Source: a virus (Duplodnaviria > Heunggongvirae > Uroviricota > Caudoviricetes). Taken from it: DNA of 64,000 nt. The DNA lies in IMG/VR virus record IMGVR_UViG_3300021387_000091, positions 69,979-133,978 of that record; one strand, written 5' to 3'. The notes below the pieces were generated by a model that was not told the DNA's origin, searched no databases, and saw only the letters and a program-made list of their open reading frames with translations. Position numbers and translations under genes: made by a program. Below, piece by piece: positions 4,139 to 24,226 of this stretch; within the stretch, counting starts at the first letter, position 1, and each line of letters opens with the position of its first letter.

Positions 4139-4263
4139 CAAGTTGCATTATTGTAAAATATGAACCATTTTTAGAATAGTTAAATTTACGTACAATTTTA
4201 TCTGATTCAAACTCTTTTGAGTCAACTAGATGATAATACTTTAATCCATCTACCTTATCTCAT

Positions 4264-6274: not shown

Positions 6275-6278
6275 TTAT

Positions 6279-6980
6279 CTATAAGTCTAAATATAAAACT
6301 GGATACTCAATTTTATAATCTTCATTTAAAACACTAACACAATAAACATCTGTTTTATCGAGAATTTCTTTATTATGATTAGATGAATGAAGATGGCCGT
6401 GAATATTTATTTTTGGAGATTTTTCTAAAATAGCATCTCTTAAAGCAACATTTCCAATATGTTCAGGATTTCTTCCCCATTTAGTCCAATCAAAACACAT
6501 ATCCGATGTACCATATGGCGCATCATGTGTTAATAATATGTCACAATCTTTAGGAATATAAGAATAAAGTTTATTTAAATTTTCTTGGTCTTTCATAAAA
6601 GCCCAATTTCCAAATATCTTACACCACGGTGTACCGTAAATAGTAATGCCGTTAAAATTATATAATGAATCCTCTAAATAAATAGTCCTATTATTTGTTT
6701 TATCTTGAATATATTTTGCTATTTCAAATCGTCCATCTTCAAGTTTTTGCCATCCAACTTCATGATTACCAGCTATCCATAAAACAACACTGTTTTCGTC
6801 TTTATATGGTAAAGAATTGACCCAATCAACAAAAGTTGTAATATACCATGACATTGTATCATGTTGATTCCGCTGATAATTTAAATCAACATTATCTCCA
6901 GCAACTAATAATAAATCAAAAGATTCCTTTATCTCTGGCAATAAACCGTGACTATCCGAAAATGCAGCCAATTTAATCAT
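6279..6980 (-). CDS. calcineurin-like metallophosphoesterase
   Basis: DSHG, GDNVD, GNHE motifs. Confidence 0.75.
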   Translation of the reverse strand: MIKLAAFSDSHGLLPEIKESFDLLLVAGDNVDLNYQRNQHDTMSWYITTFVDWVNSLPYKDENSVVLWIAGNHEVGWQKLEDGRFEIAKYIQDKTNNRTIYLEDSLYNFNGITIYGTPWCKIFGNWAFMKDQENLNKLYSYIPKDCDILLTHDAPYGTSDMCFDWTKWGRNPEHIGNVALRDAILEKSPKINIHGHLHSSNHNKEILDKTDVYCVSVLNEDYKIEYPVLYLDL

Positions 6981-8565: not shown

Positions 8566-9672
8566 TTAAAATCCAATTTTATTTGTTCTCTTTTTCTCTC
8601 CATACTCAGTTTTATCCGCATTATATATTTCAGCAAGAGTCATAGGCTTAATTTCAGTGAGACCTAAATTATATTTTTCATTTAAAGTTTCAACTTTATC
8701 TTTAGTTAACTCTTTAAACTCATACTTTGCATAGCATCTTCCTTTACGAAGTAAAGCTTGGTCAATATCCTTAACGTTTGCATTAAATGTGCAAATAAAT
8801 TTAATATTCATAATATCTGATAGTAAACCATCAGACATATTAAGAATGTTACTAATTGCACCATTAAACATATTAACGCTTCTATCAGTTAATACTTGTT
8901 CGCAGTCTTCAAGAATAAAAACAGAATTTGCATTATCAATCATAAAAGATACAAAATCAGGATCTCCTAATCTACTAGTTAAAGAAGTTGGAACAATTAT
9001 ATAGTTTTTAGGGTATTTATCGCATAAATGTCTCAATAAAGAACTTTTGCCAGTTCCAGGAGAACCATAAAACAATACAAGACCGCTTTCCCTAGAATCT
9101 AGAAACGTAATTAAATCTTTATAAACAGGCATAAAATCATCATTATACGTTTCATTGATATTTATATCAACTTTTTTTATTTTAGATTCTATAGTATAAT
9201 AAGATCCATCCGAATATCCAACAAGATTTGCTGTTGCTTCTTTAGACTCCTTAACTCTTTTAGGCAAACCATCCCATATTTGTTTTAACAGCTCTTCTAT
9301 TTCCGATTCTGTATGTTCTTCTGGAAAATATTTCACAGATATAGAATTAAGATCTATAACAAATATATACTCGTTAGATGTAATAACATTAATAGCAGAA
9401 CCAGAATCGGATATATTTAATGTTGTACCATTAGAATATTCTTGATCTGTAGCACCACCAACAAGACTGTACTTACTTGTTGTTCTCTTAATAAAACTTA
9501 TATCCGGAATTAAACTATACAAAACTTCAGATGTAATTTTTTCTAGATCGCAATGTTTTTCCTCTTCGTTAAAAGTAAGCATTAAAGAATTAGGTACACA
9601 ATTGTACTTAAAAACAAAATATTTAGAAGCAATAAAAACACCGCTTTCAGTGAAACAATCGATTAACTCCAT
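8566..9672 (-). CDS. AAA-family ATPase
   Basis: Walker A GSPGTGKS, Walker B ILEDCE, sensor-2 LLRKGR; immediately upstream of GroEL. Confidence 0.75.
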   Translation of the reverse strand: MELIDCFTESGVFIASKYFVFKYNCVPNSLMLTFNEEEKHCDLEKITSEVLYSLIPDISFIKRTTSKYSLVGGATDQEYSNGTTLNISDSGSAINVITSNEYIFVIDLNSISVKYFPEEHTESEIEELLKQIWDGLPKRVKESKEATANLVGYSDGSYYTIESKIKKVDININETYNDDFMPVYKDLITFLDSRESGLVLFYGSPGTGKSSLLRHLCDKYPKNYIIVPTSLTSRLGDPDFVSFMIDNANSVFILEDCEQVLTDRSVNMFNGAISNILNMSDGLLSDIMNIKFICTFNANVKDIDQALLRKGRCYAKYEFKELTKDKVETLNEKYNLGLTEIKPMTLAEIYNADKTEYGEKKRTNKIGF

Positions 9673-10137: not shown

Positions 10138-10209
10138 ATAAAATACAAGTTTAAATTAATCAAATCTCTAAAAATTGTGATTCTATAGAATCAACATCTA
10201 AATTATTAG

Positions 10210-10302
10210 CAGGGGCTGCAGGACTCGAACCCACATATCCGGTTTTGGAGACCGGCGTTGGCGGTTTTGAAGACCGCTGTGTTACCATTACACCAAACCC
10301 CT
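10210..10302 (-). tRNA. suppressor tRNA, anticodon UCA (reads UGA); tRNA-Trp-derived with tandem duplicated anticodon arm
   Basis: 93 nt: AGGGGTT TG GTGT AATGGTA ACAC A GCGGT-CTTCAAA-ACCGC CAACG CCGGT-CTCCAAA-ACCGG ATAT GTGGG-TTCGAGT-CCTGC AGCCCCT G; second hairpin equals E. coli tRNA-Trp anticodon arm (CCA). Confidence 0.8.
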
Positions 10303-10434: not shown

Positions 10435-10770
10435 TTAATTTATTAATTTACGACGATACGCAATAGTTGTAAATGCTTCATATTCATTTACACTAGGTAT
10501 TATATCTGTATCACTCCAAATCATCATTTCAGAATAAAGTTCATATCCAGCTGTTACTCCAACAAATCCATCTTCTAACATATAAACGTTAGTTGCAACA
10601 GAAAACCATCTATAGCTATGGATGTTTTGGCAATTAGAAACACATTTAATTTCTTCCCAATCATCTGGATACTCTGTAGAAAAAGCATCTTCAAATTCTG
10701 ACAAAGAATTAATGGAATAAAGAGTTAATAAATTCTTGAACTTTTCAATGAATTGATTAATTGATATCAT
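10435..10770 (-). CDS. hypothetical protein
   Basis: ORF track; TAA stop. Confidence 0.55.
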   Translation of the reverse strand: MISINQFIEKFKNLLTLYSINSLSEFEDAFSTEYPDDWEEIKCVSNCQNIHSYRWFSVATNVYMLEDGFVGVTAGYELYSEMMIWSDTDIIPSVNEYEAFTTIAYRRKLIN

Positions 10771-11890
10771 AACGTATTTTTCCTATAAATTCGTTTAAAA
10801 CTTTAGCATTACAATAACTCATTGTAGAACGTATTGCTGCAACAAATTGAGAAGTCCATTCAGAAAGTGTATATTCAATCGGAATCCAATATTCTTTACC
10901 TTCAGAATGTTTTATTTCAGTTTTACCCATTTCTTTTTGGGCACGCTCTGTTGACATTCCATAATACATTCTTCCAGGTTTAAATACATAATCCTTTATT
11001 TCCACAATTCTTGCTAAACGATTTTCACTAGCAGGTGTAAATATACTATTTATGTTTTTAACAGCCTTTTCAATTATTTCTCCAGCAGCTTCTTGTGATT
11101 GAGCAAATATTTTACCACACATTACATAATCTGCACCAATAGCTAAAGCCACAATTATGTCTCTTATAGAATTACAACCGCCATCATATACAATATATGG
11201 TACAGACCTATACTTTCCTAATGGATAAGAATCATACGATTTAGCAACATATTCTTGTCTATATCTTGTTTCTCTTAACATATACAAAGCATTACGTCCA
11301 ATACCAGTTAAATCGTTTGTTGCACAGCCATTACCAGAACCAATCATTATTCGTACATAATCAATACCGGCTTTAGCATATTCATCATATGCTAATGGCT
11401 CCGCAATATTTCCAGCCATAAGAATTAGTTTGTTATCAAATTTATGTTTTGCAAATTTACAAAGTTCAAGTAATTTTTTCATATGTCCATTTGCAATATC
11501 AATACAAATAAAAGTTTCAGATGTTAATGTATCTGTATTAATAGCAAAACATTCAAATTCTTCTAAACCCATTGCAATCCAAACCTGTTCAAATGCAAGT
11601 TTTATTCTAATATCATATGGAACAGTTCTTGGTATTATTGGAGTAATTTTATTTTTACTAAACTCCAAATAATTTTTATCGTTAACAACACATGACATTG
11701 GTGCAGTAAAAAGAGGTAAATGTGCGGAATCTAAATTCCAATCAAGTTTCTCTTTGGACCAAATAGCATTATAATACGGAGAGCATTCAGATCTATGTTC
11801 TATATTAGTTGTTATAGATGGAATTAATTGTATTTCATCAAAATTAGTCAAATACTTCTTCATTTTTATAAATTTTTGTAAAATCATCAA
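10757..11890 (-). CDS. IMPDH/GMP reductase-family protein (GuaC-like, no CBS domain)
   Basis: GIDYVRIMIGSGNGC and DGGCNSIRDIIVALAIGADYVMCG resemble IMPDH/GuaC catalytic-Cys loop and phosphate-binding motif. Confidence 0.7.
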   Translation of the reverse strand: MMILQKFIKMKKYLTNFDEIQLIPSITTNIEHRSECSPYYNAIWSKEKLDWNLDSAHLPLFTAPMSCVVNDKNYLEFSKNKITPIIPRTVPYDIRIKLAFEQVWIAMGLEEFECFAINTDTLTSETFICIDIANGHMKKLLELCKFAKHKFDNKLILMAGNIAEPLAYDEYAKAGIDYVRIMIGSGNGCATNDLTGIGRNALYMLRETRYRQEYVAKSYDSYPLGKYRSVPYIVYDGGCNSIRDIIVALAIGADYVMCGKIFAQSQEAAGEIIEKAVKNINSIFTPASENRLARIVEIKDYVFKPGRMYYGMSTERAQKEMGKTEIKHSEGKEYWIPIEYTLSEWTSQFVAAIRSTMSYCNAKVLNEFIGKIRYDIN

Positions 11891-12035
11891 AAGTTATTAT
11901 GTCTGAAATATCAAGCCAATTTAATTGTTTTGATTTATATGAAGTAACAAATAAATCATTTCCAATAATTTTCTTGATAATATATTTTATATATCCTTCC
12001 TTTGTTGGATAAAAGACAATATCTCCGACTTGCAT
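11844..12035 (-). CDS. hypothetical protein
   Basis: ORF track. Confidence 0.35.
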   Translation of the reverse strand: MQVGDIVFYPTKEGYIKYIIKKIIGNDLFVTSYKSKQLNWLDISDIITFDDFTKIYKNEEVFD

Positions 12036-12319
12036 GGTTTATTTAAAAATAAAACTTTATTATTTTGTACTATAAATGTTTTAGTATTTGGCCTTGTTAT
12101 AATAAACCTAAAATCTAAAAATTCATCGTCTGATAAACGAACTGTTACAATAACATGTTTTTTATTAATATCAAACACCCAGCCTTCTAATAATGATTCG
12201 TCTGAATTTAAAATCCAAACAGTATCTAAAAAATCTAAGTCTGCTAGAGTTTTCTTGGGTTTATCTATTTTATTATACTTCGGCACTATTATTTTTTTAA
12301 GATTATCTAAAAAAGACAT
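11987..12319 (-). CDS. hypothetical protein
   Basis: ORF track. Confidence 0.45.
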   Translation of the reverse strand: MSFLDNLKKIIVPKYNKIDKPKKTLADLDFLDTVWILNSDESLLEGWVFDINKKHVIVTVRLSDDEFLDFRFIITRPNTKTFIVQNNKVLFLNKPCKSEILSFIQQRKDI

Positions 12320-12338
12320 AATTTTTTATTTTAGTTAG

Positions 12339-12411
12339 GGTGTTCTGAGAGAATCGAACTCTCCTATCTAGAGCCACAATCTAGCCGACTAACCGCTATC
12401 GTAAGAACACC
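12339..12411 (-). tRNA. tRNA-His(GTG)
   Basis: G-1:C73 extra pair, anticodon arm CTAGA-TTGTGGC-TCTAG, T-arm GAGAG-TTCGATT-CTCTC. Confidence 0.85.
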
Positions 12412-13032
12412 AGCGTCTATTCTACAAAATAAATAGTAGAATTAATATCTGTAATAAATTATCGATTAGACTTCCAATAATAGTACAAATCTAATCTAAC
12501 CAATCTCAATTTTTCAAGACCATTCTTTTAATGGTTTATCTCCGTTTGCATAATGACAATCTTTAAATTCCATTCCAGATACAATTCCTAATCCAAATAA
12601 AACTGTAAACATAAATCTCAAAGGAATTACTAAAAGAAAATGTTTATATCGAATCAATTGATACTATTTTTTAATCACTCATTTTTTTTATTTATTACAT
12701 TGTAAGTATTCAAATAATTAATCCGAATAATCTCAAAAATCAATTTTCTTTTCTCGATGATTCTTTTTTTCTGGATGTTTTGTTTCTTTTTGTTGTTTTT
12801 TCTTTTTACTACGAACTTTTTCAAAATTAGTCTCGTCTGACATATGTTCTAGTTCGTAAAATGAAACTTTAGGCATTAAAAATTAAAATTAATAAAACGT
12901 AAAAAGACACTGAAAGTCACTTTTACTTACAGGCCACTAATTAACGTGTTAGAACGGAATCAATTTCGTAGACTCACCGGTACGTCCAGCGTACTTTTAA
13001 AATACATGATTTTAGCAGTTAATAAAAGTTAA

Positions 13033-13049
13033 TATTGTAAGTGTCTTAA
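13033..13049 (+). repeat. motif AATATTGTAAGTGTC (family M1)
   Basis: Recurs at 22063-22078, 26265-26281; variant at 26041-26057. Confidence 0.5.
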
Positions 13050-13280
13050 TCTATTATAATTGTTATAAATCTTTATTCACGTGTGTAGATATTTTTTACC
13101 GATATAAAATATCAAACGTTAAAATACATCCATAAAGGGCAAAAAGTCACGAAGCATACTTGTAGTCATTAGATTCTCTAACTCCAATAATTCATTATCC
13201 ACTTAGTTGGAAGCTCTCGGTGGGAATATAAGTTGTTGAATAGAATCTTATAATCTATACACGATTTTAATTTATAACAG

Positions 13281-13359
13281 TGGTGGAGTTGAAGGGACTC
13301 GGACCCTCAAAAATCCTGCCGTGCAAAGGCAGTGCGGTTACCAATTTTGCTACAACCCC
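13281..13359 (-). tRNA. tRNA-Ala(TGC), CCA encoded
   Basis: G3:U70 pair, anticodon arm CTGCC-TTTGCAC-GGCAG, 3' ...CTCCACCA; D-stem poorly paired. Confidence 0.75.
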
Positions 13360-13604
13360 AAAATCACCTTTTATACTAACCCCAGAGGTGTAACTGTGCC
13401 AACCTACGATTTGGAGGAATAGTATGCTTCTATGAGAGGCCTTTCCCATCTTCGTTCCCTGCGCGCTTAGGGCTCATTAAGTAGTTTGTTTGAAGATTTA
13501 TGGAAAAGCTACAATTACACGCTTGTAGCACACGTAGAGCTTACGTTCTCTCTATAACGATAGTAGTATATAGGATTACGATTCTTCCGTCGAAGACCAG
13601 TGAG

Positions 13605-13777
13605 TAGCGGGAGCAGGATTCGAACCTGCGACCTTCAGCTTAGACACTACGTTTGGACTCGAACCAAAATCCCGAGACTTAGGCTACGTGTACCTTACCA
13701 TTGGTCGACGTAGTGTGGTTCGTTTCAGTGAACCATGCTGTATTGAGGCTGACAAGCTACCACTGCTCTACCCCGCT
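13605..13777 (-). tRNA. class I tRNA (Arg UCU/CCU-like) split by ~100-nt intervening sequence in the anticodon loop
   Basis: 5' half AGCGGGG TA GAGC AGTGGTA GCTT G TCAGC (13777-13748) and 3' half GCTGA AGGTC GCAGG-TTCGAAT-CCTGC TCCCGCT A (13639-13605) pair as acceptor and anticodon stems; insert carries its own T-arm TTTGG-TTCGAGT-CCAAA inside an 8-bp helix. Confidence 0.5.
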
Positions 13778-13784
13778 ATTTTAA

Positions 13785-13991
13785 CTAAAGTTTATATTTC
13801 TTATGAAGTAACTTTCCACACTCTTCACATTGGAGAATATAATTTATTTTTCTACCTATTGGATATTTTTCACCATAATTACCCCATATTTGGGTTTCCT
13901 GTTCTTTAATAATTTTCCATTTATGTTTATGGAAAATGAATCGAATAAAATTTTTTAATTTGTTTAAAATATCTCTCATAATAAATAGCAT
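13785..13991 (-). CDS. small Cys-containing protein between tRNAs
   Basis: ORF track 68 aa, CEECGK motif; lies between two tRNA genes. Confidence 0.3.
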   Translation of the reverse strand: MLFIMRDILNKLKNFIRFIFHKHKWKIIKEQETQIWGNYGEKYPIGRKINYILQCEECGKLLHKKYKL

Positions 13992-13999
13992 TAATTATG

Positions 14000-14084
14000 T
14001 GGGAATGGTAGGATTCGAACCTACTGCGTTTCATAGTGTCGGATTTACAGTCCGATGCCCATCCACCATCTGAGCAGCATTCCC
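14000..14084 (-). tRNA. tRNA-Tyr(GTA), class II
   Basis: 85 nt; acceptor GGGAATG/CATTCCC, anticodon arm TCGGA-CTGTAAA-TCCGA, long variable arm. Confidence 0.85.
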
Positions 14085-14090
14085 AAATTG

Positions 14091-14161
14091 TACTCCCGCC
14101 GAGATTCGAACTCGACCTACCACCGTGAAAGGGTGGGGACCTACCACTAGTCTACAGGAGC
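14091..14161 (-). tRNA. tRNA-Glu(TTC)
   Basis: Anticodon arm CCACC-CTTTCAC-GGTGG, T-arm TCGAG-TTCGAAT-CTCGG; G1:U72. Confidence 0.8.
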
Positions 14162-14469
14162 ATAAAACCAAACTCTTACGCGGTTTGGTATTACGTCTGA
14201 TTGATTACAGAGCACAGTCACCAATCTGTACAAATAACTTTAACGTTTGATAAGATTACAGCACTCCTATGGAATTACCCAATGGTCTGTCACCTCTCTC
14301 TTTGCATAAGGCGGTCGAGACATTTACGAGGTTCAGGGTTTCTGATCTTACCCACTAATACAAACCCTTTTTCGCCAGCTGTTATTTACGTCCCTTGTAA
14401 TATTTTACAAGTTATAGCCGGAATGGTGTTATGTCAAAAGAAGATGTTTGTCCATTTTCCTCAAGCCAT

Positions 14470-14694
14470 TCAAACATTGTTTGTTCTTCGTTTAAGTTCT
14501 TGTTTGAATTGCTCTCTAAAATTGATAATATTTGTTCTACTTGGTTCATTAGAATAATTAACGATTATATTGTACATTTTTATTTGTGCAATTAGCTGAT
14601 AATTGCTCAGATGATTTATTATCATTCTCTTTATCTTTATTATCTGATGTATAACCTTTAATATTATACCTTTGCTGAATAGCATTAGATTCAA
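14470..14694 (-). CDS. hypothetical small protein
   Basis: ORF track. Confidence 0.3.
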   Translation of the reverse strand: MNLMLFSKGIILKVIHQIIKIKRMIINHLSNYQLIAQIKMYNIIVNYSNEPSRTNIINFREQFKQELKRRTNNV

Positions 14695-14724
14695 TATATC
14701 TTAATCATTCTTTAGTAGCGTTCA

Positions 14725-15141
14725 TTATAATAAAGTTAAATGTCCAGTTATTTTATCTATTTCTTCTGATATGTATGGTCCAATACAAAGACACGTGTTT
14801 GTTGGTTCTCCATGAAATTCAGTTAGTCCTGAATCTGTTATAAGTTTAACAGGAAGAAAAGCATTTTTTGCTTTCTTATAAATATCAAGGAGTTCTTCCT
14901 CTGAATTTACACCAACACAAATCTTTGTAAATTTACCATTTAGCCAATCATCTAATACAGATTTTTCATTAAAAGAAACACTATATCTATATGATTTTAT
15001 ATCGGAATTATCTTCTTTAATTTGTTCTTTGTTGAATAATAAAAGTAACGCACCAAGTGAAGCGTGTGCTCCTTGCGCAATCATTTTTCCTTTCCTCATC
15101 CCGAGGTCTTTACGCATTACTATTACTTGTTTTGTGTTCAT
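14725..15141 (-). CDS. peptidyl-tRNA hydrolase, PTH2 family
   Basis: GKMIAQGAHAS and DSGLTEF...T.T.L.IGP motifs. Confidence 0.65.
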   Translation of the reverse strand: MNTKQVIVMRKDLGMRKGKMIAQGAHASLGALLLLFNKEQIKEDNSDIKSYRYSVSFNEKSVLDDWLNGKFTKICVGVNSEEELLDIYKKAKNAFLPVKLITDSGLTEFHGEPTNTCLCIGPYISEEIDKITGHLTLL

Positions 15142-15736
15142 TTCTCCAATTGACAATTTGTTGGTTTATCTTATCATTTAAATCTTTCCAAGAAATAGGA
15201 GTAAAATTATTATTATCTACTCCTACATCATATTGTGTTGGATAAAGATATTGAAGTCTTCCAACATCTTCTGATGAACTTTTTGGCCCACTATGACAGT
15301 GCCCAAATGGAGCAAATGCAAGATTATTATCAGAATACAAACCAGGATCACCGTGAGCAAAACACAAAAAAGGAAAATGATTTAAATAAACACGCCTACC
15401 ATCAATAGTAATTTGCATTTGATATGTAACATAATCAAATAATTGATCTATACCAGCGGTTCTGTTTTTCGCGTCATGATTACCCAATATAAGTATTATA
15501 TGACCATTTAACTGATTTCTAATTTCCTTCCATTTAGGAAATCCTCCAAAACAGAAATCTCCAAGATGAAATACAGTATCTTCTGGCCCTACAACAGAAT
15601 TCCAATTATTAATTAAAATTTTATCTTGCTCTTCAACAGAAGAAAATGGACGGTTACAAAACCTAATTATGGCTTCATGACAGAAATGAGAATCGGATGT
15701 AAAAAATAATCCGTCTCCAGTAAATTTAGTCACCAT
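15110..15736 (-). CDS. metallophosphoesterase
   Basis: TSDSHF, HLGDF, GNHD motifs. Confidence 0.7.
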   Translation of the reverse strand: MVTKFTGDGLFFTSDSHFCHEAIIRFCNRPFSSVEEQDKILINNWNSVVGPEDTVFHLGDFCFGGFPKWKEIRNQLNGHIILILGNHDAKNRTAGIDQLFDYVTYQMQITIDGRRVYLNHFPFLCFAHGDPGLYSDNNLAFAPFGHCHSGPKSSSEDVGRLQYLYPTQYDVGVDNNNFTPISWKDLNDKINQQIVNWRNEHKTSNSNA

Positions 15737-16340
15737 TTAATATAGGATTAGAATTATAAATTTGCATCATCTTTTCTAAAGTAAGATTCTCTATAAGTTC
15801 TGGAAAGTTTTCTAATTGACGCATAAGACCATATCCTAAAACAGGAGACTCTGATTCATTATTAAATAAACAATCTGTAAGCTTATGAATTAAAGAGAAA
15901 TGATTAAATGCCCAGACAAACATATCAATCTTGTTTAACGATATCCATTGAACATCATCTATTTCATTTGGTTCACAATAATTGTTGTTTAAAATAATAT
16001 CAATATAATGTGGTTTATAATTCCAGTAATTTATAGTAACATTTTGTTTATTACTTAAAGGATTATCGTCTATACGCCACATTTTTAAATCAAATGGATT
16101 AACGTATAAACCAGATTCTTCGTGTATTTCTCTAGAGCAAGCACCTACTAAGGTTTCGTTATAATCCAAATATCCACATGGACAACACCACTTACCTACT
16201 TCATCTGGACAACCAGATCCTCTTTTTACAGCCAAAATAGACAAATTATCAGGGCTTCCAGTTAAAACAAAACCACAAACGGCAATAGATCTGCTTATCC
16301 AATATTCCTTATTGCCTAATTTTACAGGAAAATTATTCAT
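15726..16340 (-). CDS. NUDIX hydrolase
   Basis: Nudix box GACSREIHEESGL. Confidence 0.75.
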   Translation of the reverse strand: MNNFPVKLGNKEYWISRSIAVCGFVLTGSPDNLSILAVKRGSGCPDEVGKWCCPCGYLDYNETLVGACSREIHEESGLYVNPFDLKMWRIDDNPLSNKQNVTINYWNYKPHYIDIILNNNYCEPNEIDDVQWISLNKIDMFVWAFNHFSLIHKLTDCLFNNESESPVLGYGLMRQLENFPELIENLTLEKMMQIYNSNPILNGD

Positions 16341-16962
16341 TGTATTTAAAATATAATAATGTTGGATTATCTTTATGTATGTCTATTTCAGGATATTCCT
16401 GACTAAATTTTTGACAATTAAACGGAGATGTTATAATATGAACACCATGTAATGTAGGTACTCTAAATTTTATTTTAGATTTATCGATATGCGGTTCAAG
16501 TGTATCAATAAACACCTCTAATAATTTTAAGCCTCCTTTATTAATGGCCACATGTTCTCGTTCATTCCAGTTATCGTAGTCAATATCCACAACCCAATTT
16601 TTATAAGGTTCGTCAGCATATTTTCCAACTACAGACGGAATTAAATTAGGAAAATGGAGATAATTATCGTCAATTGCCATTTTAGCAGCATCTGCAAGCA
16701 TATTTAACATACATTTTTTATATGATCTTCTATTAAGGAGAATATATACTCTTGCACCTGTACAATCGGATAGTCTTTTTACTTCAGATTCAATGGCATC
16801 ATAGTATTCCAAAGAATAAACAAAATAATATTTAACCATTCTATTATTTGCAGGAAAAGAAGCATCATCTTTCTTTCTCTGCATTAATTCAATGAAATAA
16901 AATTTATCTTTATCTGAAAAATCCAATTTTTCTCTTATTAATTGCCAATTATCTACTATCAT
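16333..16962 (-). CDS. hypothetical protein
   Basis: ORF track. Confidence 0.5.
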   Translation of the reverse strand: MIVDNWQLIREKLDFSDKDKFYFIELMQRKKDDASFPANNRMVKYYFVYSLEYYDAIESEVKRLSDCTGARVYILLNRRSYKKCMLNMLADAAKMAIDDNYLHFPNLIPSVVGKYADEPYKNWVVDIDYDNWNEREHVAINKGGLKLLEVFIDTLEPHIDKSKIKFRVPTLHGVHIITSPFNCQKFSQEYPEIDIHKDNPTLLYFKYNE

Positions 16963-16964
16963 AA

Positions 16965-17396
16965 TTATTTTAATGTATTTAATCTAGATTTGTCAATAGG
17001 CAAACTAGTGTTTTCAGAAATAAATTCATCAAATTTATATACAACTTGTGCAGAAATAATAGGCATTATAGAATTATCTGAAATTAAATCTGTACACAAT
17101 AATATTATTGGTATATTATGAGCATATGCAAATCCTATTTCCCAAGCCGTTCCAGAATCAGAATAATGTTTATCATAAACAGCAATTATTCTATCTGCTT
17201 TTACTAAAGCATCAACGTCCATTTTAAATACAGCATTTGCCCAGTCATAATTACTTATGTTTTCTCCATCTTTTATAAAATGATCCATTGGAAAGAAATA
17301 CTCATGTCCTGATATATTAAGCAAGTATGACTTTAATTTATTCATTCGTTTCCTTTCTGTTTCGTTAAAAAATGGACCTGCTATATAAACTTTCAT
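16965..17396 (-). CDS. nucleoside 2-deoxyribosyltransferase / DNPH1-like protein
   Basis: IAGPFF...E N-terminal motif and DSGTAWEIGFA. Confidence 0.6.
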   Translation of the reverse strand: MKVYIAGPFFNETERKRMNKLKSYLLNISGHEYFFPMDHFIKDGENISNYDWANAVFKMDVDALVKADRIIAVYDKHYSDSGTAWEIGFAYAHNIPIILLCTDLISDNSIMPIISAQVVYKFDEFISENTSLPIDKSRLNTLK

Positions 17397-17402
17397 AATG
17401 CA

Positions 17403-17906
17403 TTATCTATTTAATATATTTTTAGCTAAAATACAATCTTCATCAGATAATCCACGATAAGAATTTATTTGAACAAAATGTGGTTTTTGTTCTTCTGTAA
17501 AGTCAATTCTATCATCAATAATGACATAATTTTCAACCTCTGGATGCCACTCTAGCCACATTTGGATTTCTTCTCCTCTTGTGAAATGATAACAAGATCC
17601 ATAAGAACCAAATATAGTAATTGGTGTTTTATCAATTATGTATTTTAATCCAGCTCTTTCTAATCTTCTTTGCCAACTGCTATCAATTCTCCAATCAGAA
17701 GATATTACAATCTTTGCATCAGTTTCTTGACACAATCTATTAATTCTTTCTATACAAAGTGGATCTACATCTTCCTCTCCGTTTAAGTTTCCTGGATTCC
17801 TATCATCTATATACCATAAAGTATAATTTAAAACCCCATCCACATCAAGGAAGATAATCTTATTATTTTTCATCGTCAAATAATTCATCAATTGCATTAG
17901 GAACAT
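17403..17906 (-). CDS. HAD-superfamily phosphatase
   Basis: Motif I IIFLDVDGVLN. Confidence 0.6.
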   Translation of the reverse strand: MFLMQLMNYLTMKNNKIIFLDVDGVLNYTLWYIDDRNPGNLNGEEDVDPLCIERINRLCQETDAKIVISSDWRIDSSWQRRLERAGLKYIIDKTPITIFGSYGSCYHFTRGEEIQMWLEWHPEVENYVIIDDRIDFTEEQKPHFVQINSYRGLSDEDCILAKNILNR

Positions 17907-18022
17907 AAAGAGATTTTTTCTTTTTCTCCTTTACAATCCTTTTATTCATTTCTCTAATTTGTAAAATTAATTTCCAAGTTTTTGGTTTTATATGTTTTGG
18001 TCTTTTCATATTTTATTTATTG

Positions 18023-18094
18023 AGCGAGTAATCGGAATCGAACCGACATCCTCAGCTTGGAAGGCTGACGCACTAGCCATTGTGCTATACTCGC
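18023..18094 (-). tRNA. tRNA-Gly(TCC)
   Basis: Acceptor GCGAGTA/TACTCGC, anticodon arm TCAGC-CTTCCAA-GCTGA, U73. Confidence 0.85.
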
Positions 18095-18225
18095 ATGGTC
18101 AAGTACCAGGATTTCCACCAACTTTTTACAACCTTAATACAATATAAAAAAATTAACTAGTACTTTTTAAATATTATACTTAGTTCTCCTTCTGGTTTCG
18201 AAACCTAACAGAAGGTGTACTTGGC

Positions 18226-18297
18226 GGACTCAGTAGGGTACGATCCTACAACCTATTGGTTAACAGCCAATTGCTCTACCAATTGAGCTATGAGTCC
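18226..18297 (-). tRNA. tRNA-Asn(GTT)
   Basis: Acceptor GGACTCA/TGAGTCC, D-arm GCTC-AATTGGTA-GAGC, anticodon arm ATTGG-CTGTTAA-CCAAT. Confidence 0.85.
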
Positions 18298-18301
18298 ATT
18301 G

Positions 18302-18374
18302 TCGGGATGATACGACTCGAACGTACGACCCCCTGCTCCCAAAGCAGGTGTTCTAGCCAACTGAACTACATCCC
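18302..18374 (-). tRNA. tRNA-Pro(TGG)
   Basis: Acceptor CGGGATG/CATCCCG, anticodon arm CCTGC-TTTGGGA-GCAGG. Confidence 0.85.
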
Positions 18375-18385
18375 GAATACCACAT

Positions 18386-19402
18386 TTATGGTAATGTGGT
18401 CAACCAGTTTTCAAACTCGAAAGCTTTAATAGGAATATTAAGTGTAGAAACTTTATTAAGTAATTCCTGATTTAATTTATATCCATGACTAAATACAATA
18501 GTACGATCAACATTGTAAGAATAGATAGAATCAATTGTTATAGAATGTTTTAATAACTCTATATCAAATTCAAACGCTCTAAAACTTTTCTGAAAATCGT
18601 TCCATGGATTATTTTCATCATCGATATTTAAAATAGGTTTTCCACTTAATAATGGGCCATTACCATGTCTTGTAATATACGGTCTACAAACATAATTTAC
18701 TGTAATATCATCATTTCTATTAAGTTTTGATATTATTTCAATTGCATTTTTAGATGTTGTATTACTTGGTGTACACCAAGGCATAACACCATGTATTTGA
18801 TCAAGTAATATACCTTGAGATCCCTCAAATATAACATTCTGAAAATTATTTAAATAATCTAAATGATAAATTTGAAATTTATTAGCCATTAAATGAACCT
18901 CTTCAATCCAATCATTTAAATTATTCATTGGTGTTTTAGAATCCAAATGATAATAATTTTCAGCAATACTATAAACTTTCTCTCTTAATACATGAATGTT
19001 TTGTGCATCTACAATTCGTACAGAATATCCATTTTTAATCCTATCCAATGTAGATTTAAACCCAGTTCCTACCGTACCATGTTTTCTGTTATTTTCATTA
19101 TTCCATTGACTAATAACATCAAATGGTGTAACTAATTCACAGAACGGAGAGAAAATAATTTTAGGAAGAATTCCAAGTTGCTTTAACTCAATTGCTTCAA
19201 GAAATAATGTATGTAAATCGCATATACAATACTCAGACCAATAAGTAGGAACATTTTTTAATGTGCCACTTCCAAAATTTCTAAAACAATGTTGTAAATT
19301 ATTATGTTTTACATTATGTCCAACTTGATTTGCACCAGAAAACCTTACAACAATACTATTTTCATCACATAAATTATTAACACATTGTCCCTTTGCTTCC
19401 AA
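18386..19402 (-). CDS. adenylosuccinate synthetase (PurA)-family protein with degenerate P-loop; PurZ-like candidate
   Basis: GHNVKHN (cf. GGHNAGHT), GTVGTGFKST (cf. GTTGRGIGPA), FEGSQGILLDQIHGVMPWCTPSNTT (cf. [25 protein letters not shown]); GDEGKGK replaced by LEAKGQC; TTG start. Confidence 0.7.
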   Translation of the reverse strand: MEAKGQCVNNLCDENSIVVRFSGANQVGHNVKHNNLQHCFRNFGSGTLKNVPTYWSEYCICDLHTLFLEAIELKQLGILPKIIFSPFCELVTPFDVISQWNNENNRKHGTVGTGFKSTLDRIKNGYSVRIVDAQNIHVLREKVYSIAENYYHLDSKTPMNNLNDWIEEVHLMANKFQIYHLDYLNNFQNVIFEGSQGILLDQIHGVMPWCTPSNTTSKNAIEIISKLNRNDDITVNYVCRPYITRHGNGPLLSGKPILNIDDENNPWNDFQKSFRAFEFDIELLKHSITIDSIYSYNVDRTIVFSHGYKLNQELLNKVSTLNIPIKAFEFENWLTTLP

Positions 19403-19655
19403 AATTGTTATCCTATAGACTTTTTATTCTATAGTTCTTATACTTCTTTTTTGTATAAGTTCAGCATATATTTTCATCTACTTATTTTAGTTAAGATGGC
19501 GGATACTCGTGGAAGGATTATATTTATTCACCTTCTATGCGTTACAATGTCAAATAGCCTTTCGAAATCTATTTGCTTATCTCGGTATTAACATCACAGT
19601 CTTCACCGATTTTACCCGCTTCGATATATGATTTCTCATATAAAGGACGAAATTC

Positions 19656-20582
19656 TAAATAACGATTGAATTTTCTTTCAAGATATATATTAGAATCTTC
19701 ATAAAGATATTTTACACAATTTCAAGCTTTTCTATCTGTTGCAATTAATACATGTGTTACAGTATTTCCATTTTCTGGATGAAGTAAACGTATATGTTGA
19801 TATCCATTATTAAAATATTCAGCACATTTATTAAGAAAATCTTTTGTTCCAATAATACTCATTTCTATAGCAGAATGATCTGCGTTGGAATAAGTAATAC
19901 ATCCATCTCCATCAAAGTACCCTCTAATAAAATGTCTTATTAAAGCTGGATCTTTAAATATATTTTCATTTGGAAATTTAATAGTTAACGATTTTCTTGG
20001 AGTACAACCATAAGAATTTAATACTTCAACCATATGTTTATTATCAAAAGACATTCTGCAAAGATCTCCTGTTGGTAAACTCTGATACCTCATTTTGTAA
20101 GTATATCCAAGAAAATCCATAAATTTCTGCAAATGTGCTTTATCTTTAATACTAAGATTTACTGTAATTTTTGGTCTAGTAGAATCAATTCCTCCATCTG
20201 CATACAAAAATCCAAGTCAATAAGCTTTTTCTTCTGTATCAATAGAATCAAAAATATTATAATTTATATTGTTAATTCTATCTTTTCTAATTACTTGAAT
20301 GTTTGTTTGTTTTAATCATCTAGCAAGTGTTGCAACACCAACATTTAAAATAGATGATATTTCTTTAAGAGTTTTTCCCTGATTCTTATAAAGATCAATC
20401 ACTGTGTTTATATCTAAACTAATATTTCTTCTTTTTATTTCTACATTATTTAAACGTAAGTAATTCCCAATTGTTTGAGGACTTACTTTTAACTCTGTAG
20501 AAATATCTTTAATTGTTTTTCCAGACTTATAGATTTCTATAACGTTTGCTTTTTGTAAAAATTCAATCATTCGTTTTTGCAT
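19656..20582 (-). CDS. LAGLIDADG homing endonuclease with N-terminal HTH domains (3 in-frame TGA)
   Basis: ORFs 20316-20582 and 19722-20207 share a frame and join through TGA at 20316 and 20217; motifs Y(W)LGFLYADGG and FIRGYFDGDGC; TAG stop at 19656. Confidence 0.65.
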
Positions 20583-20689
20583 AATTAAAATTATTTTTTT
20601 GTTAAACCTTTGTAAATTTACACAAAAAATTTCAAAAATGCAAATTTATTTTTCATCACCAAAGAAACTTCCTAAAACTATCTCTATCA

Positions 20690-21586
20690 TTAGTACTTAT
20701 ATTCGTTATTATCTAAATCAGACTTTGGCGATTCAGAAGAATCTTTATCTAGATACTTATGAATTGTATCACCAATAACCTTATTAATATCAGAGGAATC
20801 ACATCTAAGAACATGATCTCCAAGCTTTTCATTCCAATCTGAACTAAATCTATTGTATCCATCATTTACATGAATATGAAATACATGATACTGTTCACAA
20901 GCTTTATTATAAGCTTCTGTATCAGTAATAGGTTTACAACCACTTTCATATCCCATGCAACGGACTAATGCATCACTACTTACTTCTGTAGCATTTCCTT
21001 CATCTCCAATTGTAAATAAGAAACCTTTCTTATGACGATTATACCAAGAATCAGTTTCCGTGTGATACCCCGCAGCAATCCAAGCAAGAAGATAAGATTC
21101 TACTCGGTTTCCACCACCGCCTCCTTCGAGATAAAGACTCTGAAGAGAAGAACAGATTTTTTCGGTATCAGATTCAAATTGAGTAATCTGAATAGGAGCA
21201 CGATCATACAAATGATCTCCAATTCCCATAAATAATAACTCAGGGTCAGGAACGCCAATTTCTTTTAATTGATTCATGAGTTTAGGAAGAAGTTCCGTAA
21301 CCATCTTATGTGGAATATGACCCATTGAACCAGTTACATCAAATGCAACAATAATAGGTGTAGTATTAGGATGTTCTTCAGAATCACGACATTCTCTAAC
21401 ACCTACATTTAACATTTTTGCATCAATATCTTTATTATATGTTCTTGCATCAATATTTAGACTTTTAATTGCATTAACATGATTAATACTCCTACTTTTA
21501 AATGCAGTATTAACATTGCTATTTGCTAAATTATTGTCAAGACTATAACTAGCATATGATGCAGTTGACCAACTACCAGAACCCAT
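20690..21586 (-). CDS. vWA-domain protein
   Basis: MIDAS-type motif IIVAFDVTGSM. Confidence 0.65.
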   Translation of the reverse strand: MGSGSWSTASYASYSLDNNLANSNVNTAFKSRSINHVNAIKSLNIDARTYNKDIDAKMLNVGVRECRDSEEHPNTTPIIVAFDVTGSMGHIPHKMVTELLPKLMNQLKEIGVPDPELLFMGIGDHLYDRAPIQITQFESDTEKICSSLQSLYLEGGGGGNRVESYLLAWIAAGYHTETDSWYNRHKKGFLFTIGDEGNATEVSSDALVRCMGYESGCKPITDTEAYNKACEQYHVFHIHVNDGYNRFSSDWNEKLGDHVLRCDSSDINKVIGDTIHKYLDKDSSESPKSDLDNNEYKY

Positions 21587-21942
21587 TAGTTATCCTCCTC
21601 TGTTGTATCAACAACTTCTTCTGTTTCAGGAAACATTTCATCATACCACTTCTTTACAAGATTATATTCAATCTTAGCGATACGAAGATCCTTCTGAAAT
21701 TGAATTTGCGTATCAACCCAAGCTTTAGGATCAAAATCCTTTGAACCAGGACGAAGTGAGTGTGTAGATTCTACTGCAAGATCAGCATGATTCTCAATCT
21801 GATTCTGTAAACGAAGAACCTTTGTTTTGTAAGAAGCAACTAAATTATTTGCTTCAATTTTAGTCATTTCGGCAATATTTGCCGCACGTGCATCTAGTAC
21901 ATTTTTACCAGTAGCACCAAGTCTTTCTTTAAAACTGGCCAT
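21586..21942 (-). CDS. hypothetical protein
   Basis: ORF track; stop overlaps next start (TAATG). Confidence 0.45.
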   Translation of the reverse strand: MASFKERLGATGKNVLDARAANIAEMTKIEANNLVASYKTKVLRLQNQIENHADLAVESTHSLRPGSKDFDPKAWVDTQIQFQKDLRIAKIEYNLVKKWYDEMFPETEEVVDTTEEDN

Positions 21943-24147: not shown

Positions 24148-24226
24148 AATTAAAAATTTATTTGTTAAACATTTTATTTTGTAGTACAAAGATACAAAAT
24201 AATTTTGTGCTATCCAAATAAATTTG

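What the first reader, a model, noticed from the sequence alone, without database searches (positions are those of the whole stretch)
10757..19402. PurA-like enzyme with degenerate P-loop plus GuaC-like enzyme: possible purine-pool remodelling or PurZ-type base modification
The PurA homolog keeps the IMP/aspartate-binding regions, but the GDEGKGK P-loop is LEAKGQC. A GMP-reductase/IMPDH-family protein is also present, and nearby are NUDIX, HAD phosphatase, deoxyribosyltransferase-like and three metallophosphoesterase genes. Together these could channel G nucleotides to A nucleotides for a ~30%-GC genome. Alternatively the PurA homolog could be a PurZ-like enzyme making 2-aminoadenine (Z) nucleotides, as in Z-genome phages.
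Basis: inference. Interest (0 to 1): 0.65.

Follow-up and report, generated by a model that had tools for sequence, protein, structure and literature searches.

The report
Intron-split phage PurA-like gene, not PurZ
The "degenerate P-loop" is an artefact of a self-splicing-type intron that cuts the gene; once joined, the gene encodes a normal-looking member of a huge, uncharacterised phage family of adenylosuccinate-synthetase-like enzymes. This family always sits next to a vWA protein, is not the Z-base enzyme PurZ, and is only sometimes linked to a GMP-reductase-like gene.

Summary
ORF 18386-19402(-) is only exon 2. A 36-nt exon 1 (20655-20690) encodes MIEIVLGSFFGD. A 1,255-nt group I-type intron carrying a LAGLIDADG endonuclease lies between the two exons. 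The spliced 349-aa protein has the P-loop GDEAKGQ and matches intron-less homologues residue for residue.

The protein is not PurZ. It keeps Asp where PurZ has its diagnostic Ser. It scores 26.5 bits against the NCBIfam PurZ cut-off of 300. No DatZ or MazZ analogue was found in the window.

It is not an orthodox PurA either. The aspartate loop (GATTGRRRR) and the guanine-binding C-terminus are missing or remodelled, and V273 is replaced by an invariant His.

It belongs to a very large phage-only clade that includes Mycobacterium cluster C, Vibrio and Rhizobium phages. In 79 of 84 loci it is immediately preceded by a vWA/MIDAS protein gene.

The GuaC-like protein keeps the GMP-reductase Cys/Thr/Glu triad. 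It is linked to the vWA-PurA-like pair in only three lineages.

The most likely reading is a phage purine-nucleotide conversion module (G to I to A-type). The amine substrate and the role of the vWA partner are unknown.

The parts
20655..20690 (-). Exon 1 of the PurA-like gene (MIEIVLGSFFGD). Its ATG overlaps the stop codon of the vWA gene (TAATG).
   Evidence: Sequence read. Spliced translation. Identical N-terminus in intron-less homologues P0002 and P0005 and identical DNA in L004 and L001.
19400..20654 (-). Group I-type intron, 1,255 nt. The 5' exon ends in U (GGUGAU|) and the intron ends in G (..AACAAUUUUG|). The boundary is ambiguous by 3 nt (GAA).
   Evidence: precise excision restores the intron-less allele. 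A homologous intron in L098 splits the Walker A codons of an AAA gene. Core covariation. Rfam gave no hit.
19569..20582 (-). Intron-encoded homing endonuclease: two N-terminal HTH domains plus LAGLIDADG, 337 aa, with three in-frame TGA codons read as Trp.
   Evidence: code-4 ORF. Pfam LAGLIDADG_3 at 2e-09 and HTH_23/HTH_28 at 3e-09. 42% identical homologue inside the L098 intron.
19400..19619 (-). Structured intron core: P3 (GCGGGUA/UAUCCGC), P4-P5, P6 with GAAA loop, P7 (GCAUA/UAUGC), P7.1, P8, P9 hairpins and the terminal G. It overlaps the 3' end of the endonuclease ORF.
   Evidence: RNAalifold on 23 copies gave 43 pairs, 30 of them with compensatory double changes. The motif is found in at least 120 viral contigs. 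P3 covaries between the window and L098 (sequences).
18386..19399 (-). Exon 2 of the PurA-like gene (EAKGQCVNN...TTLP, then stop).
   Evidence: AlphaFold model with pLDDT 92.6; best structural matches are bacterial PurA at TM 0.70-0.74.
20690..21586 (-). vWA/MIDAS-domain protein (298 aa), the conserved and translationally coupled upstream partner of the PurA-like gene.
21586..21942 (-). 118-aa protein of unknown function, a frequent third member of the block.
   Evidence: Present just upstream in 63 of 84 loci. No Pfam or PHROG hit.
10757..11890 (-). GMP-reductase-like (IMPDH/GMPR family) protein, 377 aa, without a CBS subdomain.
   Evidence: Pfam IMPDH 4e-29. Best PDB matches are human GMPR2 and GMPR1 (E 6.5e-23). 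NCBIfam GMP reductase 104 bits, below the 397 cut-off. C189, T191 and E330 are invariant in the family. phrog_9582.
17403..17906 (-). HAD phosphatase (HAD_SAK_2 type).
   Evidence: Pfam 6.7e-32. Co-located only in the closest relatives.
16965..17396 (-). Nucleoside 2-deoxyribosyltransferase-family protein (143 aa).
   Evidence: Pfam PF05014 1.1e-21; phrog_7995.
16333..16962 (-). 209-aa protein of unknown function in the same overlapping gene string.
   Evidence: phrog_14949, no Pfam hit.
15726..16340 (-). NUDIX hydrolase (204 aa).
   Evidence: Pfam 7.3e-12. Weak NCBIfam similarity to ADP-ribose-type Nudix proteins.
15110..15736 (-). Calcineurin-like metallophosphoesterase (208 aa).
   Evidence: Pfam 6.4e-05; phrog_547 4e-50.

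Best explanation
Shown:
- The PurA homologue is a complete gene interrupted in its P-loop codons by a group I-type intron that carries a LAGLIDADG homing endonuclease.
- The spliced product (349 aa, P-loop GDEAKGQ) belongs to a very large phage-specific clade of adenylosuccinate-synthetase-like enzymes.
- That clade is almost always encoded immediately downstream of, and translationally coupled to, a vWA/MIDAS protein.

Inferred:
- The enzyme keeps the first half of PurA chemistry. The P-loop Lys, the Asp13 base, the His41 acid and the Gln224/Leu228/Thr239 nucleotide pocket are retained. It therefore probably binds a 6-oxopurine nucleoside monophosphate (IMP or dIMP-like) and phosphorylates O6 with an NTP.
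- The phosphate donor is probably not GTP-specific, because the guanine-binding TKLD motif and the C-terminal element are gone.
- The second half differs from PurA. The aspartate-binding loop is replaced by a conserved N-x-[FY]-Q-x-x-[FLM]-R loop, and Val273 is an invariant His. The amine that displaces the phosphate is therefore bound differently from PurA's aspartate, possibly with help from the vWA partner.
- In this phage lineage a GMP-reductase-like enzyme with an intact Cys/Thr/Glu triad can supply the 6-oxo substrate from G nucleotides. The net effect would be conversion of G-type to A-type purine nucleotides for a 30%-GC genome.
- It is not a PurZ (2-aminoadenine) system.
For: Intron and splice junction.

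Family membership and size:
- 772 close relatives, 345-370 aa, on 90-400 kb contigs.
- 3,735 clusters at 50% identity with E<=1e-30.
- 240 GenBank phage records, including 202 mycobacteriophage records such as Catera and I3 (Bixzunavirus), plus Vibrio and Rhizobium phages.

Catalytic residues kept and aspartate/GTP elements lost.

Structure: PurA fold, pLDDT 92.6, closest to bacterial PurA.

Not PurZ: plus the PurZ Ser signature described in PMC8342488 and bioRxiv 10.1101/2025.10.22.683976.

vWA coupling.

GuaC-like catalytic triad and closest structures GMPR1/2.

Recurrent linkage of GuaC-like with the vWA-PurA-like pair:
- Window, L001 and L053.
- L128, L139 and L157, as one operon with a PRPP-motif protein.
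- L160.

Precedent for GMPR-homologue plus AdSS (plus Nudix and PRTase) converting a G-type into an A-type nucleotide: the tubercidin and toyocamycin pathways (PMC6112128).
Against: - No enzymology exists for any member of either family.
- The aspartate site is not conserved, so formation of adenylosuccinate (and therefore AMP via host PurB) is not assured.
- The conserved partner is a vWA protein, and a protein-kinase-like or J-domain-like protein in distant lineages. An ordinary metabolic role does not explain this.
- GuaC-like is absent within 10 kb in 81 of 84 PurA-like loci.
- None of the 67 GuaC-like phage records is from Mycobacterium, Vibrio or Rhizobium, the groups that hold nearly all PurA-like records. 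Mycobacteriophages have about 65% GC (from prior knowledge), so AT-richness cannot be the general rationale.
- The neighbouring HAD (Swiss-army-knife RNA-repair type), PTH2 and the many tRNA genes suggest that part of the 'cluster' may serve RNA or tRNA maintenance rather than nucleotide pools.
- Rfam does not recognise the intron, and splicing has not been shown.
Confidence: 0.4

Rival explanations
1. The vWA-PurA-like pair (plus a kinase-like or J-domain-like protein in other lineages) is not a pool-feeding enzyme. It would be a host-manipulation or conflict module. In it, the AdSS-like protein would use its NTP-dependent ligase chemistry on an unusual acceptor, for example a peptide or protein amine such as the invariant N-terminal Gly of the vWA partner, or would make a signalling or decoy nucleotide.
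For: The vWA gene is adjacent in 79 of 84 loci with overlapping stop/start. In distant lineages the order is kinase-like (Pkinase 2e-9 in Catera gp249; weak DnaJ in L072), then vWA, then PurA-like. The vWA N-terminal Met-Gly and the MIDAS motif are invariant across very divergent members. The free-aspartate site is lost.
Against: The nucleotide pocket and catalytic residues are conserved, as expected for a small-molecule enzyme. There are no PADLOC hits. No genuine fusion or structural evidence for a complex was obtained; the one fusion ORF, L059, looks like a deletion. GuaC-like and PRPP-motif genes in the same operon in L128 point to nucleotide metabolism.
Confidence: 0.2
2. The module makes a non-canonical A-type purine nucleotide, such as a 7-deazaadenine-type or N6-substituted (d)AMP, from a modified G-type precursor. 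The route would be analogous to toyocamycin and tubercidin biosynthesis (GMPR homologue, AdSS, Nudix/HAD, PRTase), and the product would be incorporated into phage DNA.
For: The enzyme set matches: GMPR-like, AdSS-like, NUDIX, HAD and NDT in the window, plus a PRPP-motif protein in L128. TubD (GMPR homologue) and TubG (Nudix) act in tubercidin synthesis together with PurA/PurB (PMC6112128). The remodelled third-substrate loop would allow a different amine.
Against: No FolE, QueC, QueD, QueE, DpdA or other base-modification genes were found among about 50 window ORFs scanned. Only 64 kb of a roughly 170-kb genome was seen. The cluster genes are not co-conserved with PurA-like outside close relatives.
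Confidence: 0.1
3. It is a PurZ-type enzyme that makes 2-aminoadenine (Z) nucleotides from dGMP.
For: Its length is similar to PurZ (about 350 aa). Like PurZ, it lacks guanine-specific GTP recognition and the R303 contact with the 2'-OH. An NDT-family gene is nearby, and an NDT-family enzyme (DmtZ) works in some Z phages (PMC12884076).
Against: It has Asp, not Ser, at the PurZ-defining position. The PurZ HMM scores 26.5 bits against 300. Profile E-values to PurZ and PurZ0 are 0.0025-0.03 against 3e-35 to bacterial PurA. hhalign aligns only 51 columns. It is 14.5% identical to phiVC8 PurZ and groups with the phage clade, not with PurZ. The PurZ aspartate-loop threonines are absent. No DatZ, MazZ or DpoZ analogue was found.
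Confidence: 0.03
4. The gene is a pseudogene inactivated by insertion of a mobile endonuclease element.
For: Rfam finds no group I intron. P1 pairing could not be identified by eye. A stop codon follows two codons after the junction.
Against: The insert excises exactly to the intron-less sequence with U|...G| boundaries. Exon 2 is an intact 338-codon frame that is 99% identical in another sample (P0001). The insert has a strongly covarying core shared by at least 120 copies, placed in conserved codons of other genes.
Confidence: 0.05

Closest known systems
Bacterial adenylosuccinate synthetase (PurA, PF00709; E. coli 1ADE, Legionella 6BS7)
   Same: Same fold (Foldseek TM 0.70-0.74). P-loop GDxxKG with Asp13, His41, Gln224, Leu228 and Thr239 conserved. 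Best sequence match of the family profile, E 3e-35.
   Different: - About 80 residues shorter.
- The aspartate loop GATTGRRRR is replaced by a shorter conserved Q-x-x-[FLM]-R loop.
- The guanine-binding TKLD motif and C-terminal element are absent.
- N38 is Gln, T129 is Val and V273 is His (TRVG becomes TRHG).
- It scores 107.7 bits against the NCBIfam cut-off of 402.
- It is obligately paired with a vWA protein.
PurZ / PurZ0 (succino-amino-deoxyadenylate synthase of Z-genome phages; 6FM1, 7ODX, 7VF6)
   Same: Phage-encoded short PurA-family enzymes that have lost GTP specificity and the R303 contact with the 2'-OH.
   Different: PurZ has Ser where this protein has Asp. PurZ keeps the Thr-rich aspartate loop and derives from archaeal-type PurA. 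It sits with DatZ and MazZ. Here identity to phiVC8 PurZ is 14.5%, the HMM score is 26.5 against 300, and there is no Z-cluster.
GMP reductase (GuaC; human GMPR1/GMPR2, 2BLE/2BZN)
   Same: The GuaC-like protein has a (beta/alpha)8 barrel without CBS domains. The Cys186/Thr188/Glu289 equivalents and the phosphate-binding DGG and YGMS motifs are invariant.
   Different: It scores only 104 bits against the 397 cut-off. It has two insertions of about 20-30 residues. It belongs to a phage family (phrog_9582) found in Lak megaphages, a crAss-like phage and phage G. Whether it prefers ribo- or deoxyribonucleotides is unknown.
Toyocamycin/tubercidin tailoring set (ToyE/TubD GMPR homologue, ToyG or host PurA, ToyF or PurB, TubG Nudix, ToyH/TubE PRTase)
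   Same: The same combination of enzyme families converts a G-type nucleotide to an A-type nucleotide (PMC6112128). GMPR-like, AdSS-like, NUDIX and HAD are in the window, and a PRPP-motif protein is in L128.
   Different: No 7-deazaguanine synthesis genes and no adenylosuccinate lyase were seen. The AdSS-like enzyme lacks the aspartate site. The genes are scattered among tRNA genes rather than forming one operon.
Phage group I introns with homing endonucleases (subgroup IA type, e.g. T4 td, Staphylococcus phage Twort orf142; from prior knowledge)
   Same: 5' exon ending in U and a terminal G. P3-P9 core with extra P7.1-type hairpin(s). Endonuclease ORF (LAGLIDADG here, GIY-YIG in other copies) in a peripheral position and overlapping the core. 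Insertion in highly conserved codons.
   Different: It is not detected by Rfam RF00028 at any threshold tried. The endonuclease ORF uses TGA as Trp. Two copies split P-loop codons of unrelated NTPases (GD|E of PurA-like, GSG|KT of an AAA gene).

Membership tests
PurZ (succino-amino-deoxyadenylate synthase) | [quoted passage not shown] | tested here: not met
   The window protein has G11-D12-E13. Asp is nearly invariant in the family. The signature is taken from PMC8342488 and bioRxiv 10.1101/2025.10.22.683976.
PurZ (succino-amino-deoxyadenylate synthase) | Score above the curated cut-off of NCBIfam NF038379 (300 bits) | tested here: not met
   26.5 bits.
PurZ (succino-amino-deoxyadenylate synthase) | Synteny with DatZ (HD dATPase) and/or MazZ, or a DUF550- or Dut-like dATP/dGTP hydrolase | tested here: not met
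   No HD, MazG or dUTPase domain among about 50 window ORFs. The HD protein near the Vibrio phage homologue is unrelated to DatZ. The rest of the genome was not seen.
PurZ (succino-amino-deoxyadenylate synthase) | dGMP + Asp + (d)ATP gives dSMP; Z replaces A in virion DNA | not testable with these tools
   Needs enzymology and nucleoside LC-MS.
Adenylosuccinate synthetase PurA | PF00709 domain and fold | tested here: met
   128 bits against a cut-off of 27. Foldseek top 28 hits are PurA.
Adenylosuccinate synthetase PurA | Catalytic Asp13, His41, P-loop Lys16, and IMP pocket Gln224/Leu228/Thr239 | tested here: met
   D12, H40, K15, Q207, L211 and T222 are invariant or nearly invariant. N38 is Gln and T129 is Val.
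Adenylosuccinate synthetase PurA | Aspartate-binding loop (Thr300, Thr301, Arg303, Arg305) | tested here: not met
   Replaced by N-D-F-Q-K-S-F-R with a 4-residue deletion.
Adenylosuccinate synthetase PurA | Guanine recognition (Lys331, Asp333 in TKLD; Ser414 region) | tested here: not met
   TKLD aligns to the diverged 'NVDRT' segment just upstream of 'IVFSHG', so Lys331 and Asp333 have no counterpart. The C-terminal region is absent.
Adenylosuccinate synthetase PurA | Score above the NCBIfam equivalog cut-offs (402 and 395.55 bits) | tested here: not met
   107.7 and 96.7 bits.
GMP reductase (GuaC/GMPR) | Catalytic Cys186 and the Thr188/Glu289 dyad; barrel without CBS subdomain | tested here: met
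   C189, T191 and E330 are invariant. The alignment to GMPR2 shows G-C-A-T against V-C-T-T and SEGK against SEGK.
GMP reductase (GuaC/GMPR) | Score above the NCBIfam equivalog cut-off (397 bits) | tested here: not met
   104.3 bits. This is still higher than for the IMPDH models, at 75 bits.
GMP reductase (GuaC/GMPR) | NADPH-dependent reductive deamination of GMP | not testable with these tools
   Enzymology needed.
Group I intron | Precise insertion relative to an intron-less allele, 5' exon ending in U, intron ending in G | tested here: met
   The same rule holds in the L098 copy.
Group I intron | Conserved P3-P9 core supported by covariation | tested here: met
   30 of 43 pairs have compensatory changes in 23 copies. 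The P3 and P7 long-range pairs were identified. P1 and P2 were not identified.
Group I intron | Match to Rfam Intron_gpI (RF00028) | tested here: not met
   No hit at gathering threshold or at E<=10.
Group I intron | Self-splicing with guanosine cofactor | not testable with these tools
   In vitro transcription and splicing assay needed.

The most novel reading that the evidence does not exclude
The phage AdSS-like enzyme and its inseparable vWA/MIDAS partner would form a two-protein ligase. It would activate the 6-oxo group of (d)IMP and couple it to an amine other than free aspartate. Candidates are ammonia (a one-step, PurB-independent AMP synthesis) or a peptide amine such as the invariant N-terminal glycine of the vWA protein. 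The product would be a previously unknown purine nucleotide or a protein-nucleotide conjugate, made by thousands of large phages, including Mycobacterium cluster C phages.
Probability: 0.15. Interest if true: 0.85.

Novelty: new variant of a known kind. Interest (0 to 1): 0.5.

Why it matters
- It removes a false lead. There is no degenerate P-loop and no PurZ or Z-genome here. It also shows how an unrecognised intron, together with TGA-as-Trp recoding, can mislead ORF-based reading.
- It defines a very large, experimentally untouched phage clade of adenylosuccinate-synthetase-like enzymes. The clade has 3,735 clusters at 50% identity and is present in well-studied, cultivable phages such as Bxz1/Catera. 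Its third-substrate site is rebuilt and it has a fixed vWA partner.
- Because cultured members exist, the question 'what does phage PurA-like do?' is directly testable.
- The recurrent attachment of a GMP-reductase-like gene, and in one lineage a PRPP-motif gene, suggests a modular phage purine-conversion pathway.
- The intron belongs to a widespread family (at least 120 viral contigs) that Rfam misses and that can target P-loop codons.

Tried and rejected
- Rfam on the window, on the intron region at E<=10, and on 30 loci holding the core motif found no group I model hit. The intron was classified from boundaries, the endonuclease and covariation instead.
- The first pattern scan used a wrong spacer (5 N instead of 4) and found nothing. 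The corrected scan is.
- A near-identity DNA search of the region against GenBank phages matched only a tRNA.
- PDB sequence search with the vWA profile found nothing. Its fold was identified only after structure prediction.
- Literature searches for PurA-like/adenylosuccinate with mycobacteriophage, vWA or anti-defence terms found no functional study.
- PADLOC gave no relevant hit.
- phiVC8 DatZ against the HD protein near the Vibrio phage homologue showed no similarity.
- The search for 7-deazaguanine, DatZ, MazZ or dUTPase genes among window ORFs found none.
- Intersecting the contig lists of PurA-like and GuaC-like loci was uninformative, because the GuaC list was truncated at 80 of at least 593.
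- P1 and the internal guide sequence of the intron could not be assigned by inspection.
- The afdb50 fold library was unavailable.
- The apparent vWA-PurA-like fusion in L059 was rejected as evidence of a natural fusion. It lacks the vWA C-terminus and the PurA-like P-loop, so it looks like a deletion or an assembly artefact.

Full report
**Setting.** The window has about 30% GC. Genes run mostly on the minus strand up to about 50 kb, and it carries 18 tRNA genes. It has no close relative among GenBank phages. TGA is read as Trp in a subset of genes. The LAGLIDADG ORF and an RNase H gene carry in-frame TGA at positions of conserved Trp, and a 94-nt tRNA with anticodon UCA lies at 10209-10302. 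All ORFs were therefore re-called with table 4.

**The observation.**
- The listed genes exist. Pfam finds an adenylosuccinate synthetase domain in the 18386-19402(-) ORF, an IMPDH/GMPR domain at 10757-11890, and NUDIX, a deoxyribosyltransferase-family domain, HAD_SAK_2, PTH2 and a metallophosphoesterase between them. Two further metallophosphoesterases lie outside the span.
- The 'LEAKGQC P-loop' is not real. Upstream, at 20690-20655(-), a mini-exon overlaps the stop codon of the preceding gene (TAATG). It reads MIEIVLGSFFGD followed by E-K-stop.
- Joining it to GAAGCAAAGGGA at 19399 gives a 349-aa protein beginning MIEIVLGSFFGDEAKGQCVNN.
- An intron-less homologue, P0002 (349 aa, 81% identical), has exactly this N-terminus. 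The DNA of two intron-less alleles (L004, L001) runs straight through the junction.
- The 1,255-nt insert is bounded by U| and G|. It encodes a 337-aa HTH+LAGLIDADG endonuclease with three TGA codons.

**The insert is a group I-type intron.**
- Rfam finds nothing.
- A homologous element in L098 shares a 42% identical endonuclease and a 76% identical 3' non-coding part. It is inserted, again with U|...G| boundaries, in the Walker A codons (GPTGSG|KT) of an AAA gene.
- The core motif AACGCATAG-N4-TGAATAAATAT occurs in at least 120 viral contigs.
- RNAalifold on 23 copies including the window gives 43 pairs, 30 of them with compensatory double changes.
- The pattern reads as P4-P5, a long P6 with a GAAA loop, a long-range P7 (GCAUA/UAUGC) enclosing two hairpins, and 3' hairpins before the terminal G.
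- P3 (GCGGGUA/UAUCCGC in the window, UCGAGUA/UACUCGA in L098) also covaries.
- Other copies carry GIY-YIG ORFs in a different loop.
- I could not assign P1, and splicing itself is untested.

**What the spliced protein is.**
- Fold: it has the PurA fold (AlphaFold pLDDT 92.6). Its best structural matches are bacterial PurA at TM about 0.72. PurZ and PurZ0 rank lower.
- Sequence: a family profile hits bacterial PurA at E 3e-35, archaeal PurA at 1.7e-18, PurZ0 at 0.0025 and PurZ at 0.016-0.03.
- Curated models: NCBIfam scores are 107.7 bits for purA (cut-off 402) and 26.5 bits for PurZ (cut-off 300).
- Residues kept, from alignments to E. coli PurA: Asp13, Lys16, His41, Gln224, Leu228 and Thr239.
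- Residues changed: Asn38 becomes Gln, Thr129 becomes Val and Val273 becomes an invariant His.
- Loops changed: GATTGRRRR is replaced by a shorter conserved N-x-[FY]-Q-x-x-[FLM]-R loop. The guanine-binding TKLD motif and the C-terminal element are absent.
- The PurZ-defining Ser (PMC8342488; bioRxiv 10.1101/2025.10.22.683976) is Asp here.
- Identity is 23% to E. coli PurA and 14.5% to phiVC8 PurZ.
- In a small neighbour-joining tree the window protein groups with the phage homologues from Catera and Vibrio phage SRILMA, apart from PurA and PurZ.
- The TRHG and Q-x-x-x-R signatures are shared by those distant phage members.

**The family and its partner.**
- Size: the family has 772 close relatives, all unnamed, on contigs of 90-400 kb. 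It has 3,735 clusters at 50% identity with E<=1e-30.
- Cultured carriers: 202 Mycobacterium phage records (for example Catera and I3, genus Bixzunavirus, and related phages), Rhizobium RHph_Y65/TM30 and Vibrio Va1/SRILMA/phiTY18. They are annotated 'PurA-like adenylosuccinate synthetase' or, through PHROG 1211, '2-aminooxy adenylosuccinate synthetase'.
- Neighbours: in 84 loci with 10-kb flanks the gene is immediately preceded by a homologue of the 298-aa protein at 20690-21586 in 79 cases. The 118-aa protein is present in 63. GuaC-like, NDT, NUDIX and the 208-aa metallophosphoesterase are each near it in only 2-3 loci, the closest relatives L001 and L053 among them; HAD-like matches occur in 7.
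- Third gene: in distant lineages a roughly 295-aa protein precedes the pair. It has a protein-kinase domain (Catera gp249) or a weak J-domain hit.

**The GuaC-like protein.**
- Its best solved relatives are human GMPR2 and GMPR1 (E 6.5e-23).
- The catalytic Cys, the Thr/Glu dyad and the phosphate-binding motifs are invariant in its family.
- It is far below the NCBIfam GMP-reductase cut-off (104 against 397 bits) but scores higher there than for IMPDH.
- Homologues occur in Lak megaphages, a crAss-like phage, phage G and at least 593 viral contigs.

**Link between the two enzymes.**
- Among 80 GuaC-like loci with 3-kb flanks, L128 and L139 carry one operon: vWA, PurA-like, a 273-aa protein with a PRPP-binding motif (ILVFDDLCDGGGT; Pfam Pribosyltran E 1e-3, below cut-off), a 118-aa-like protein, then GuaC-like. 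L157 holds the downstream part of the same operon.
- L160 has a vWA gene 2.5 kb downstream of GuaC-like.
- The two enzymes have therefore been brought together at least three times. The association is accessory, not universal.

**Interpretation.**
- The most economical reading is a phage purine-nucleotide conversion module.
- The GMPR-like enzyme would turn (d)GMP into (d)IMP.
- The AdSS-like enzyme would activate the 6-oxo group with an NTP and aminate it.
- The toyocamycin and tubercidin pathways use the same enzyme families to turn a G-type into an A-type nucleotide (PMC6112128).
- Two things do not fit an ordinary PurA: the loss of the aspartate site and the fixed vWA (and sometimes kinase-like) partner.
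- I therefore hold the mechanism at 0.4. Three rivals remain: a non-metabolic conflict or ligase role, a modified-purine pathway, and, at low weight, PurZ or a pseudogene.
- The HAD (RNA-repair type), PTH2 and the surrounding tRNA genes may belong to RNA or tRNA maintenance rather than to this pathway.

**Verdict.** The finding as written is partly right about gene content and wrong about its central anomaly. What is really there has moderate interest: an intron-split member of a vast, uncharacterised, vWA-coupled AdSS-like phage family with a rebuilt third-substrate site. It is testable in cultured phages.

Noticed in passing
window 10209-10302(-); ORFs 632-5400(-), 19569-20582(-), 23470-24258(-), 58060-63207(+): TGA is read as Trp, but in a patchy way. 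Counts of TGA against TGG are 21/8 in the 632-5400 block (DNA-polymerase-like, RNase H), 3/0 in the intron endonuclease and 23/15 in the + strand genes after 58 kb. They are only 2/51 in 5.5-19.5 kb and 23/128 in 20.7-50.5 kb. In RNase H the TGA codons align with conserved Trp. A 94-nt tRNA with anticodon UCA is encoded at 10209-10302.
   Followed up: partly
window 19400-20654(-); L098 about 4560-5786; L169-L288: A widespread group I-type intron family (at least 120 IMG/VR contigs share the core motif) that Rfam does not detect. Two copies split P-loop codons of unrelated NTPases (GD|E of PurA-like; GSG|KT of an AAA/MoxR-like gene). Different copies carry LAGLIDADG or GIY-YIG endonucleases in different loops.
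   Followed up: partly
L086 (Mycobacterium phage Catera gp249-gp252), L064-L084: In distant lineages the conserved block has three genes: a protein-kinase-like or J-domain-like protein (about 295-357 aa), the vWA protein and the PurA-like protein. The annotated start of Catera gp250 is probably 12 codons too early, because the conserved N-terminus is MGSGA.
   Followed up: partly
L128 442-4053 (also L139, L157): An operon of vWA, PurA-like, a 273-aa protein with a type I PRTase/PRPP-synthetase-like PRPP motif, a 116-aa protein and GuaC-like. A cREC_REC (cyclic-phosphate processing receiver) protein lies 1.5 kb downstream.
   Followed up: partly
L059 9278-11008: A single 576-aa ORF fuses a C-terminally truncated vWA protein to a PurA-like protein lacking its first roughly 13 residues, including the catalytic Asp. 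This is probably a deletion variant or an assembly artefact.
   Followed up: no
window 23470-24258(-) and 24121-24174: A 262-aa ORF with a Cys-rich, HNH-like motif (my reading of the sequence, e.g. CPNCH; Pfam found only a weak C-terminal GerE/LuxR HTH hit) and four TGA codons. It may be a second, free-standing homing endonuclease. A 59-nt stretch inside it (24121-24174) is 81% identical to nt 44-102 of the purA-like intron, which span the endonuclease start.
   Followed up: no
window 48774-49826(-): A 350-aa protein matching Pfam F420-0:gamma-glutamyl ligase (CofE-like, E 3e-37), an unusual gene for a phage.
   Followed up: no
window 5879-9672(-), 14725-15156(-), 31370-32581(-): A set of host-physiology genes: MgtC-family protein, a third metallophosphoesterase, GroEL-like chaperonin (530 aa), AAA ATPase, PTH2 peptidyl-tRNA hydrolase and an SPFH/Band 7 protein.
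   Followed up: no
window 32000-38000 and 52000-58000: GC content rises from about 0.30 to 0.37-0.42 in two blocks. In the 52-58 kb block long ORFs overlap on both strands, so gene calls there are uncertain.
   Followed up: no
window 12411-13280: About 870 nt between tRNA-His and tRNA-Ala has no ORF of 70 aa or more on the coding strand, even with table 4. Its content was not examined.
   Followed up: no
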